Assembly (NCBI RefSeq): GCF_003334255.1
Contig: NZ_QOWU01000001.1
DNA: 64,000 nucleotides
Origin: Escherichia coli
Lineage (GTDB): Bacteria; Pseudomonadota; Gammaproteobacteria; Enterobacterales; Enterobacteriaceae
Direction: 5' to 3' (one strand)
Both the position numbers and the translations under genes were made by a program. How positions within the stretch are numbered: position 1 is the stretch's first letter; the number at the start of each line of letters is the position of its first letter. Shown one piece after another: positions 21,132 through 21,233 of this stretch. The notes beneath the pieces are model-generated. The model was not told the DNA's origin. It did no database searches and saw only the letters and a program-made list of their open reading frames with translations.

Positions 21132-21233
21132 ATGCCGGATGCGGCGTGAACGCCTTATCCAGCCTACAAAATTGTGCAAAATCAATGGATTGCACAGCTA
21201 GCGTAGGCCTGATAAGCGTAGCGCATCAGGCAG
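21132..21233. repeat. REP/BIME extragenic palindromes (two units, inverted)
   Basis: gccggatgcggcgtgaacgccttatcc and its inverted counterpart aggcctgataagcgtagcgcatcaggc, in the gcd-cueO convergent intergenic region. Confidence 0.8.

What the first reader, a model, noticed from the sequence alone, without database searches (positions are those of the whole stretch)
21132..21233. REP/BIME elements at two convergent gene junctions
REP clusters occupy the gcd-cueO junction (21132-21233) and the yacG-mutT junction (48291-48503, two about 85-bp units with the last REP overlapping the mutT stop codon). They probably act as mRNA stabilisers or terminators and are potential targets for REP-associated tyrosine transposase activity or gyrase binding.
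Basis: partly seen in the sequence, partly recalled or inferred. Interest (0 to 1): 0.2.

Follow-up and report, generated by a model that had tools for sequence, protein, structure and literature searches.

The report
Ordinary E. coli REP/BIME repeats
Both sites are ordinary copies of the well-known REP/BIME palindromic repeats of E. coli K-12, sitting between convergent genes; they vary in presence and copy number between strains and serve as landing pads for the insertion sequence IS621, so the finding is correct but not new.

Summary
The window is E. coli K-12 MG1655, and it holds exactly six REP units, all at the two named junctions.

- **gcd-cueO:** one tail-to-tail pair, y REP, 35-nt L linker, z2 REP (21134-21231).
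- **yacG-mutT:** two 84-85-bp head-to-head z1-s-y units joined by a 32-nt L linker (48301-48501). The last y REP supplies the mutT TAG stop codon.
- **Linkers:** both L linkers match the IHF consensus exactly, so these are chimeric ("atypical") BIMEs with BIME-1-type linkers, not the gyrase-preferred BIME-2.
- **Termination:** neither site has a U-tract, so neither is an intrinsic terminator. Published data place Rho termination regions about 200 nt beyond each BIME on the gcd/yacG strand.

Census of 5,426 complete E. coli genomes:

| Locus | Allele | Genomes |
|---|---|---|
| gcd-cueO | BIME absent | about 46% |
| yacG-mutT | one unit | 56% |
| yacG-mutT | two or more units | 38% |
| either locus | IS621 inserted at the ATCAGGCCTAC target of a z-type REP | 3-4% each |

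The REP overlapping the mutT stop is kept in all five Escherichia species examined. This is already known biology and of low interest.

The parts
21134..21167 (+). y-type REP, with the consensus reading on the + strand and the CCTAC foot at the 3' end. It starts 38 nt after the gcd stop codon.
   Evidence: 33 of 35 identical to the y consensus; RNA hairpin -15 to -19 kcal/mol; sequence.
21168..21202 (.). Tail-to-tail L linker with an exact IHF consensus, AATCAATGGATTG, at 21180-21192.
   Evidence: 6 matches in the window, 2 of them in the two L linkers; L-linker definition; sub-threshold Rfam ES036 hit.
21203..21231 (-). z2-type REP in inverted orientation. It holds a perfect IS621 target, ATCAGGCCTAC, at 21203-21213 with the crossover core at 21205-21206.
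   Evidence: 30 of 30 identical to the z2 consensus; IS621 inserted exactly here in strain CD45 and about 203 genomes; target definition.
21256..21279 (.). GC-rich hairpin ATGCCCGGAGAGATCCGGGCAT. It is not part of the BIME. It is the basal structure shared by the convergent gcd and cueO 3' ends.
   Evidence: Invariant in all five alleles aligned, including the BIME-less ones; -19 kcal/mol on either strand; no U-tract.
48301..48338 (-). z1-type REP in inverted orientation, 19 nt after the yacG stop. It holds a perfect IS621 target at 48301-48311 with the crossover core at 48303-48304.
   Evidence: 36 of 37 identical to the z1 consensus; IS621 inserted here in O26:H11 strain 11368 and 181 genomes.
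48339..48350 (.). Short head-to-head (s-type) linker TCTTGTGCAAAT inside unit 1.
48351..48385 (+). y-type REP, closing unit 1.
   Evidence: 32 of 35 identical to the y consensus. Together with the z1 REP it forms an Rfam naRNA4 match at 48304-48381 on the minus strand, 78.4 bits against a threshold of 59.5.
48386..48417 (.). Tail-to-tail L linker between the two units, with an exact IHF consensus, TATCAATGAGTTA, at 48396-48408.
   Evidence: The same consensus is kept in the L linkers of E. albertii and three other Escherichia species representatives.
48418..48454 (-). Second z1-type REP, inverted. Its foot is degenerate (TTAG instead of GTAG), so it has one mismatch to the IS621 target.
   Evidence: 35 of 37 identical to the z1 consensus.
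48455..48466 (.). Short head-to-head linker TCGTGTGCGAAT inside unit 2.
48467..48501 (+). Second y-type REP. Its GTAGG foot, read on the minus strand, contains the mutT TAG stop codon at 48497-48499.
   Evidence: 31 of 35 identical to the y consensus; ORF end; second naRNA4 match at 48421-48497 on the minus strand, 77.8 bits. The stop lies inside the REP in all five Escherichia species representatives.

Best explanation
Both sites are canonical E. coli REP/BIME repeats. They are short, imperfect, GTAG-footed palindromes of the y, z1 and z2 classes, and they occupy the only gene-free space between convergent genes.

Architecture:
- Locus 1 is a single tail-to-tail pair, y-L-z2.
- Locus 2 is a tandem array of two head-to-head z1-s-y units joined by an L linker.
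- Both L linkers carry an IHF consensus site. Both elements are therefore chimeric (atypical) BIMEs with BIME-1-type linkers.

Shown here:
- They are dispensable and dynamic. They are present or absent, and vary from one to five units, across strains and species.
- Their z-type REPs are real insertion targets of the REP-specific IS621.

Inferred:
- When transcribed as part of the gcd, yacG and mutT 3' UTRs, the stable stem-loops most likely act as barriers to 3'-to-5' exonucleases. The transcripts they would protect are ended by Rho a few hundred nucleotides further on. The REPs are probably not terminators themselves.
- The REP that begins at the mutT stop codon probably impedes terminating ribosomes and lowers MutT output. 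This is the published rule for REPs within 15 nt of a stop codon.
- At the DNA level the L linkers probably bind IHF.
- Spread and copy-number change are attributed to recombination between units and to the REP-associated transposase TnpAREP (RAYT).
For: Identity:
- Each of the six REPs matches its published y, z1 or z2 consensus at 31-36 of 30-37 positions, with stable hairpins and an internal stem mismatch (consensus sequences).
- IHF consensus sites lie in both L linkers.
- Rfam naRNA4, a two-REP unit model, hits both locus 2 units above threshold.
- The sequences are repeated dozens of times per genome.

Dynamics at gcd-cueO, in 5,426 genomes:
- 2,377 have a 46-nt spacer with no REP.
- 95 have a CFT073-type deletion allele.
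- About 2,505 have the K-12 type.
- About 237 have a variant with a duplicated y REP.
- About 203 have IS621 in the z2 REP.

Dynamics at yacG-mutT:
- 3,016 have one unit.
- 1,869 have two or more units with the K-12 L linker.
- 217 have a variant L linker.
- 181 have IS621 in the z1 REP.
- Other Escherichia species carry two to five units.

IS621: the insertions sit at the CT core of ATCAGGCCTAC, with the core repeated at both junctions. This matches the published target.

RNA role:
- Fold z-scores are -5.2 to -6.4.
- There is no U-tract.
- Rho termination regions lie at K-12 111226(-) and 138442(-), which are window 48704 and 21488 on the + strand.
- The published REP-protection model is summarised.

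mutT:
- The stop codon is inside the REP, and this holds in all five Escherichia species representatives.
- The rule for REPs within 15 nt of a stop codon is summarised.
Against: - No RNA 3' end is assigned to gcd, cueO, yacG or mutT in the one Term-seq table I could search. The stabiliser role therefore has no direct support at these loci.
- The Rho regions were mapped with 800-nt windows. Rho could be acting at the BIMEs themselves.
- About 46% of genomes do without the gcd-cueO BIME, which argues against any important host function there.
- IHF binding, ribosome stalling at mutT and TnpAREP action are inferred from sequence rules and from other loci. None was measured here.
- The Liang et al. 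2015 paper itself could not be read. I cite it only through a later paper's summary.
Confidence: 0.85

Rival explanations
1. The REP clusters are the transcription terminators of the convergent gene pairs, either intrinsic and bidirectional or provoking Rho-dependent attenuation.
For: - Each REP forms a stable GC-rich hairpin on both strands.
- The clusters lie between convergent genes.
- Rho-dependent termination regions are reported within a few hundred nucleotides downstream on the gcd/yacG strand.
- The literature reports BIME-associated Rho-dependent attenuation at other loci (cited).
Against: - No stem followed by a U-tract is found at either junction.
- About 46% of genomes lack the gcd-cueO BIME yet keep a separate invariant hairpin.
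- 56% of genomes have only one unit at yacG-mutT.
- The reported Rho positions lie about 200 nt beyond the BIMEs, inside the antisense of the opposing gene.
Confidence: 0.12
2. They are DNA-level chromosome-structuring sites, acting as strong gyrase sites or supercoil-domain barriers.
For: - Gyrase binds and cleaves BIMEs, and y REPs are the preferred cut sites.
- A BIME can block supercoil diffusion.
- Convergent transcription creates positive supercoiling exactly at these junctions.
- One neighbouring gene, yacG, encodes a gyrase inhibitor. This is only a curiosity.
Against: - In vivo enrichment is reported for a subset of BIME-2 (y plus z2 with short linkers in tandem). Neither locus has that architecture.
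- Neither locus is named in the searchable supplements of the Topo-Seq paper.
- Strain polymorphism shows the elements are dispensable.
Confidence: 0.12
3. The yacG-mutT units are genes for naRNA4-like noncoding RNAs that work with HU to condense the nucleoid.
For: - Both units score 78 bits against Rfam RF02564, whose threshold is 59.5, on the mutT-sense strand.
- The published activity needs only an RNA with two REP hairpins, and even the antisense RNA works.
Against: - The Rfam model is in effect a model of any two-REP head-to-head unit, so a hit does not show a discrete RNA or HU binding.
- No promoter-like site is found.
- The units are z1+y, not z2+y.
- Most strains have only one unit, and some have it split by IS621.
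Confidence: 0.08
4. At these two loci the repeats are functionally neutral passengers. They are selfish or hitch-hiking elements tolerated because the space between convergent genes is free of promoters.
For: - Presence and absence are split near 50:50 at gcd-cueO.
- Copy number runs from one to five at yacG-mutT.
- Interruption by IS621 is tolerated in 3-4% of genomes.
- One lineage lost the BIME through a deletion between TTCATGCC direct repeats.
Against: - The REP that overlaps the mutT stop is retained at the same position in all five Escherichia species representatives, and a GTAG palindrome does the same in Enterobacter, Leclercia and Lelliottia. This suggests either constraint or a strong insertion hot spot.
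- IHF consensus sites are preserved in the L linkers across species.
Confidence: 0.35

Closest known systems
BIME-1 (also called RIP or RIB): y and z1 REPs separated by an L linker that binds IHF
   Same: - Both loci have a tail-to-tail y-L-z junction.
- The linker is 32-35 nt long and carries an exact IHF consensus.
- The y-L-z1 core of locus 2 fits the definition.
   Different: - Locus 1 pairs y with z2 instead of z1.
- Locus 2 is not a single pair. It is extended on both sides by head-to-head short linkers and further REPs, and it is tandemly repeated one to five times across strains and species.
- By the published definition both are 'atypical' chimeric BIMEs.
BIME-2: tandem y/z2 REPs with short linkers, the preferred gyrase target
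   Same: - Locus 2 is tandem and variable in copy number, with short head-to-head linkers.
- Locus 1 contains a z2 REP.
   Different: - Locus 2 uses z1, not z2.
- Locus 1 is single-copy with a long L linker.
- There is no evidence of gyrase cleavage at either locus.
REP325 / naRNA4 (Rfam RF02564)
   Same: It is a two-hairpin unit of about 77 nt made of one y and one z REP with a short linker, and both locus 2 units score above the Rfam threshold.
   Different: - REP325 has six y+z2 units between yjdM and yjdN. Here there are two y+z1 units.
- Expression as a discrete RNA and HU binding are untested here.
- Locus 1 scores only 34.8 bits.
Natural IS621 target sites in REPs (IS110 family, bridge-RNA-guided)
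   Same: - Perfect ATCAGGCCTAC targets lie in the z REPs at 21203-21213 and 48301-48311.
- Natural insertions occur at the CT core in about 203 and 181 genomes.
   Different: - K-12 itself carries no IS621 at these sites.
- The third z REP (48418-48454) has a one-base mismatch in the target.
Stop-codon-proximal REPs that down-regulate translation (Liang, Rudd and Deutscher 2015; known to me from memory and from the summary read)
   Same: The mutT-proximal y REP starts inside the stop codon, well within the published 15-nt limit.
   Different: - No experimental data for mutT were found.
- The REPs nearest yacG (19 nt), gcd (38 nt) and cueO (65 nt) lie outside the limit.

Membership tests
REP (E. 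coli y, z1 and z2 classes) | A 30-40-nt imperfect palindrome matching the y, z1 or z2 consensus | tested here: met
   Six units with 31-36 identities to the best consensus. The order is y, z2 at locus 1 and z1, y, z1, y at locus 2 (consensus sequences).
REP (E. coli y, z1 and z2 classes) | A conserved GTAG/CTAC tetranucleotide at the foot of the stem, and an internal mismatch in the stem | tested here: met
   Five of six units have the CTAC foot, and the unit at 48418-48454 has TTAG. All fold with a one-position internal mismatch (requirement described).
REP (E. coli y, z1 and z2 classes) | High copy number, dispersed, extragenic | tested here: met
   A median of 35 and 17 matching places per genome for the two 601-bp queries. 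All six units are intergenic except for the 3-5 nt overlap with the mutT stop.
BIME-1 (RIP/RIB) | One y and one z1 REP in inverse orientation, in single copy | tested here: not met
   Locus 1 has z2 rather than z1. Locus 2 has four REPs in two tandem units (definition).
BIME-1 (RIP/RIB) | A long L linker carrying an IHF binding site | tested here: met
   Exact WATCAANNNNTTR matches at 21180-21192 and 48396-48408, against 2.5 expected in the whole window. Actual IHF binding is not testable here.
BIME-2 | y and z2 REPs with a short S linker, in tandem copies flanked by s, l or r motifs | tested here: not met
   Locus 1 is single-copy with an L linker, and locus 2 uses z1. Both are therefore 'atypical' chimeras under the definition.
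Intrinsic (Rho-independent) terminator | A GC-rich hairpin followed directly by a U-tract | tested here: not met
   No such site lies within 21096-21296 or 48282-48500 on either strand.
naRNA4 (Rfam RF02564) | A covariance-model score at or above the gathering threshold | tested here: met
   78.4 and 77.8 bits against 59.5 for the locus 2 units on the minus strand. Locus 1 scores 34.8 bits, which does not meet the threshold.
naRNA4 (Rfam RF02564) | A discrete transcript that binds HU and condenses DNA | not testable with these tools
   This is known only for REP325.
IS621 target site | The 11-nt target ATCAGGCCTAC with a CT core, and real insertions at that core | tested here: met
   There are two perfect targets. 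Insertions with the core repeated at both ends are seen in L007 and L011, and in about 203 and 181 genomes. The target is defined.
Translation-attenuating REP | A REP within 15 nt downstream of the stop codon | tested here: met
   For mutT the REP starts 3 nt before the end of the stop codon. It is not met for yacG (19 nt), gcd (38 nt) or cueO (65 nt).
Translation-attenuating REP | A reduction of the upstream protein that depends on ribosome stalling and tmRNA | not testable with these tools
TnpAREP (RAYT) substrate | A REP with a 5' GTAG and a stem mismatch, plus an inverted REP offering CT cleavage sites | tested here: inconclusive
   The sequence requirements are present on both strands of both BIMEs. 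Cleavage or mobilisation was not tested, and the rayT gene lies outside the window.

The most novel reading that the evidence does not exclude
The REP foot GTAG has been co-opted as the mutT stop codon and is kept genus-wide as a built-in brake on MutT synthesis. The ribosome would have to terminate while melting the REP stem.

Point mutations in that REP foot (GTAGG to GTATG) create a natural MutT dimorphism of 129 versus 132 residues, with termination now inside the stem. REP sequence and copy-number variation could then tune the level of an antimutator enzyme, and so the mutation rate, between E. coli lineages.
Probability: 0.15. Interest if true: 0.4.

Novelty: already known. Interest (0 to 1): 0.1.

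Why it matters
It matters little as a discovery. REP/BIME elements, their IHF-binding linkers, their strain-to-strain polymorphism and their use as IS621 targets are all established.

The practical value is in annotation and interpretation:
- These 100-200-bp blocks should be labelled as atypical BIMEs, not as terminators.
- They explain length polymorphism at two core-genome junctions.
- They explain the 129 versus 132 residue MutT variants.
- They mark two natural IS621 (bridge recombinase) landing sites next to core genes.

If the stop-codon-embedded REP does tune MutT levels, it would link a selfish repeat to control of mutation rate. That remains untested.

Tried and rejected
- A full-length degenerate REP pattern found nothing because the loop length was too rigid. 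I replaced it with the tail motif and with alignment to the consensus sequences.
- Of the three extra tail-motif hits, the two I read (12699 and 41749) are non-palindromic sequence. The third (42466) was not inspected. None was counted as a REP.
- The current RefSeq K-12 record carries no repeat_region features at either locus, so the official REP numbering could not be retrieved.
- The repeat finder reported nothing at locus 1 because its two REPs belong to different classes.
- I could not open Liang et al. 2015 or Liang and Deutscher 2016. No supplements are held for Dar and Sorek 2018.
- The Topo-Seq supplements do not mention these genes.
- The Bridge-RNA paper's supplements gave only spurious 'gcd' matches inside protein alignments.
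- The Term-seq table search found no 3' end assigned to the four genes, but only the first occurrences of each number prefix are displayed. A few 1114xx positions therefore could not be excluded.
- Census numbers taken from identity bands count records rather than genomes and are approximate. They sum to 5,417 of 5,426 at locus 1. At locus 2 the counts sum to 5,283, leaving 143 genomes unclassified.

Full report
**Where the window comes from.** Both 601-bp regions around the claimed sites are 100% identical to E. coli K-12 MG1655 and W3110. Comparison with NC_000913.3 shows that the window is the reverse complement of the K-12 chromosome, with K-12 coordinate = 159930 minus window coordinate.
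- gcd, + strand, stop at 21093-21095.
- cueO, minus strand, stop at 21297-21299.
- yacG, + strand, stop at 48279-48281.
- mutT, minus strand, stop at 48497-48499.

I aligned each unit to the three REP consensus sequences printed in the IS621 bridge-RNA paper.
- Locus 1 holds a y REP at 21134-21167 (33 of 35 identical) and an inverted z2 REP at 21203-21231 (30 of 30).
- Locus 2 holds z1 (48301-48338), y (48351-48385), z1 (48418-48454) and y (48467-48501).
- The locus 2 REPs form two head-to-head units of 85 and 84 bp that are 92-100% identical, with start-to-start spacing of 116-117 bp.

**It is more than chance.**
- The REP tail motif occurs 9 times in the window against 0.88 expected. Six are these REPs. 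The other three were not counted as REPs: the two I read are non-palindromic sequence, and 42466 was not inspected.
- The window therefore holds six REPs, all at these two junctions.
- RNA folds of both strands of both spacers are far more stable than shuffled controls, with z-scores of -5.2 to -6.4.
- The REP parts recur at a median of 35 and 17 places per E. coli genome for the two 601-bp queries.

**Architecture and class.** Ton-Hoang et al. define three classes:
- BIME-1 is y plus z1, separated by a long and well-conserved L linker that often carries an IHF site, and occurs in single copy.
- BIME-2 is y plus z2 with short linkers, and occurs in tandem copies.
- Atypical BIMEs are chimeras of the two.

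Against these definitions:
- Locus 1 is y, a 35-nt tail-to-tail linker, then z2.
- Locus 2 is [z1-s-y]-L-[z1-s-y].
- Both long linkers contain an exact match to the IHF consensus WATCAANNNNTTR, at 21180-21192 and 48396-48408. These are two of only six matches in 64 kb.
- Both elements are therefore atypical BIMEs with BIME-1-type, IHF-site linkers. Neither is a BIME-2.

In vivo gyrase cleavage is enriched in a subset of BIME-2, and neither locus appears in the searchable Topo-Seq supplements. IHF is the more likely protein partner. That is an inference from the consensus match, not a measurement.

**They are not intrinsic terminators.**
- No hairpin followed by a U-tract is found in either spacer on either strand.
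- Locus 1 has a separate 9-bp GC-rich hairpin at 21256-21279, between the BIME and the cueO stop. It is invariant in every allele examined, including alleles with no REP at all, and it folds at -19 kcal/mol on either strand. It is the basal 3' structure of this convergent pair, and the BIME is an add-on.
- Supplementary file 2 of Adams et al. 2021 lists bicyclomycin-sensitive (Rho) termination regions at K-12 111226(-) with Rho score 5.3, antisense to mutT, and at 138442(-) with score 3.4, antisense to cueO.
- In window terms these are + strand positions 48704 and 21488, about 200 nt beyond each BIME on the yacG and gcd transcripts.
- This fits the published model in which Rho terminates downstream and REP stem-loops then stop 3' exonucleases. 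The 800-nt windows used in that analysis cannot exclude Rho acting at the BIME itself.
- No curated Term-seq 3' end is assigned to any of the four genes. The stabiliser role remains an inference.

I used 100-200-bp junction-specific queries with a strict E-value against 5,426 complete E. coli genomes.

| Locus | Allele | Count |
|---|---|---|
| gcd-cueO | 46-nt spacer with no REP | 2,377 genomes |
| gcd-cueO | CFT073/Nissle-type 77-nt spacer with no REP | 95 genomes |
| gcd-cueO | K-12 type | about 2,505 records |
| gcd-cueO | variant linker, with a duplicated y REP in the two examples read | about 237 records |
| gcd-cueO | K-12 type interrupted by IS621 | about 203 records |
| yacG-mutT | single z1-s-y unit | 3,016 genomes |
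| yacG-mutT | two or more units with the K-12 L linker | 1,869 genomes |
| yacG-mutT | two units with a different L linker | 217 genomes |
| yacG-mutT | IS621 in the z1 REP | 181 genomes |

- The CFT073-type allele keeps the left flank of the filled allele and looks like a deletion between TTCATGCC direct repeats.
- The gcd-cueO classes sum to 5,417. The yacG-mutT classes leave 143 genomes unclassified.
- So the gcd-cueO BIME is missing in about 46% of genomes, and K-12's two-unit state at yacG-mutT is the minority state.
- Both elements are dispensable and dynamic, in line with the published view that BIME number at a locus varies between strains.

**IS621.**
- In strain CD45 an IS621 copy sits inside the z2 REP of locus 1.
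- In O26:H11 strain 11368 one sits inside the z1 REP of locus 2.
- In both, the flanks read ...GTAG|IS...AG|GCCTGATAAG. On the other strand this is insertion at the CT core of ATCAGGCCTAC with the core present at both junctions. That is exactly the natural IS621 target reported for REPs.
- K-12 carries perfect targets at 21203-21213 and 48301-48311, and a one-mismatch target in the third z REP.
- Whether the roughly 200 genomes at each site represent one or several insertion events was not determined.
The sequence requirements for TnpAREP (GTAG foot, stem mismatch, inverted REP partner) are present, but nothing here tests it.

**The mutT stop codon.**
- In K-12 MutT ends ...KRL followed by TAG, which lies in the REP foot.
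- In O157:H7 and several other strains the foot reads GTATG. The reading frame then runs three codons further to the TAA of the REP's GATAAG, giving a 132-residue protein (399-nt CDS against 390 nt).
- I scanned one genome per species with MutT.
- All five Escherichia species representatives have a y REP starting 3 nt before the end of the mutT stop. They carry two to five y/z1 units.
- E. albertii and Escherichia sp. E1V33 have 561-562-nt spacers with four L linkers that each keep the IHF consensus.
- In Enterobacter, Leclercia and Lelliottia the whole 34-nt spacer is one GTAG-footed palindrome whose TAG is again the mutT stop.
- Citrobacter has a REP 8-9 nt after the stop.
- Klebsiella, Kosakonia and Buttiauxella have spacers of 0-60 nt with no E. 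coli-type REP.
- Salmonella has 314-340 nt with no E. coli-type REP at six or fewer errors.
- That the REP brakes MutT synthesis is therefore a reasonable but untested inference.

**Rfam.**
- The only curated RNA family that matches is naRNA4 (RF02564). It hits both locus 2 units on the mutT-sense strand at 78 bits against a threshold of 59.5.
- It does not hit locus 1 above threshold, scoring 34.8 bits there.
- naRNA4 is one y+z2 unit of REP325. Its model in effect recognises any head-to-head two-REP unit, so the hit confirms the architecture rather than a function with HU.

**Verdict.** What is there is known biology: two atypical BIMEs with IHF-site linkers. They are variable between strains. 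They are used as IS621 landing sites. One of them provides the mutT stop codon. Novelty is "already known" and interest is low.

The only thread with some potential is whether the stop-codon-embedded REP and its allelic variants tune MutT levels.

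Noticed in passing
window 48497-48501, and loci L008-L012: MutT is 129 residues in K-12 but 132 in O157:H7 and other strains. A GTAGG to GTATG change in the REP foot removes the TAG, and the frame then runs on to the TAA inside the same REP.
   Followed up: partly
L007 1807-3086 (strain CD45) and L011 223-1503 (O26:H11 strain 11368): IS621 is inserted at the CT core of ATCAGGCCTAC in the z2 REP of gcd-cueO and in the z1 REP of yacG-mutT. About 203 and 181 of 5,426 genomes carry these insertions.
   Followed up: yes
L013 1590-2152 (E. albertii) and L015 1590-2153 (Escherichia sp. E1V33): The mutT-yacG spacer is expanded to about 560 nt, with five y/z1 units and four L linkers that each keep the IHF consensus. 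This amounts to a tandem array of predicted IHF sites.
   Followed up: partly
L075, L048, L060 and others (Enterobacter, Leclercia, Lelliottia), about 1590-1628: The whole 34-nt mutT-yacG spacer is a single GTAG-footed palindrome whose TAG is the mutT stop. The same arrangement therefore occurs outside Escherichia.
   Followed up: partly
window 21256-21279: A 9-bp GC-rich hairpin between the BIME and the cueO stop is invariant in all alleles, including those without REPs. It has no clear U-tract on either strand.
   Followed up: partly
window 21096-21133 and 21232-21255, and L006: The 155-nt presence/absence block at gcd-cueO includes non-REP flanks that pair with each other in the RNA folds. 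The CFT073/Nissle allele looks like a deletion between TTCATGCC direct repeats of a filled allele.
   Followed up: partly
window 21168-21210 (+): The L linker of the gcd-cueO BIME gives a sub-threshold Rfam hit to the ES036 (CssrF) sRNA: 30.9 bits against a gathering score of 37.6, E = 1.6e-4.
   Followed up: no
window 48901-48970 (-), 36916-37029 (+) and 54617-54706 (-): There are above-threshold Rfam hits to STnc40 (at the secA 3' end and mutT 5' UTR), tp2 and PssrA elsewhere in the window.
   Followed up: no
window about 48704 (+) and about 21488 (+), which are K-12 111226(-) and 138442(-): Published bicyclomycin-sensitive Rho termination regions lie antisense within mutT and cueO. The yacG and gcd transcripts therefore read through the BIMEs into the opposing gene.
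   Followed up: partly
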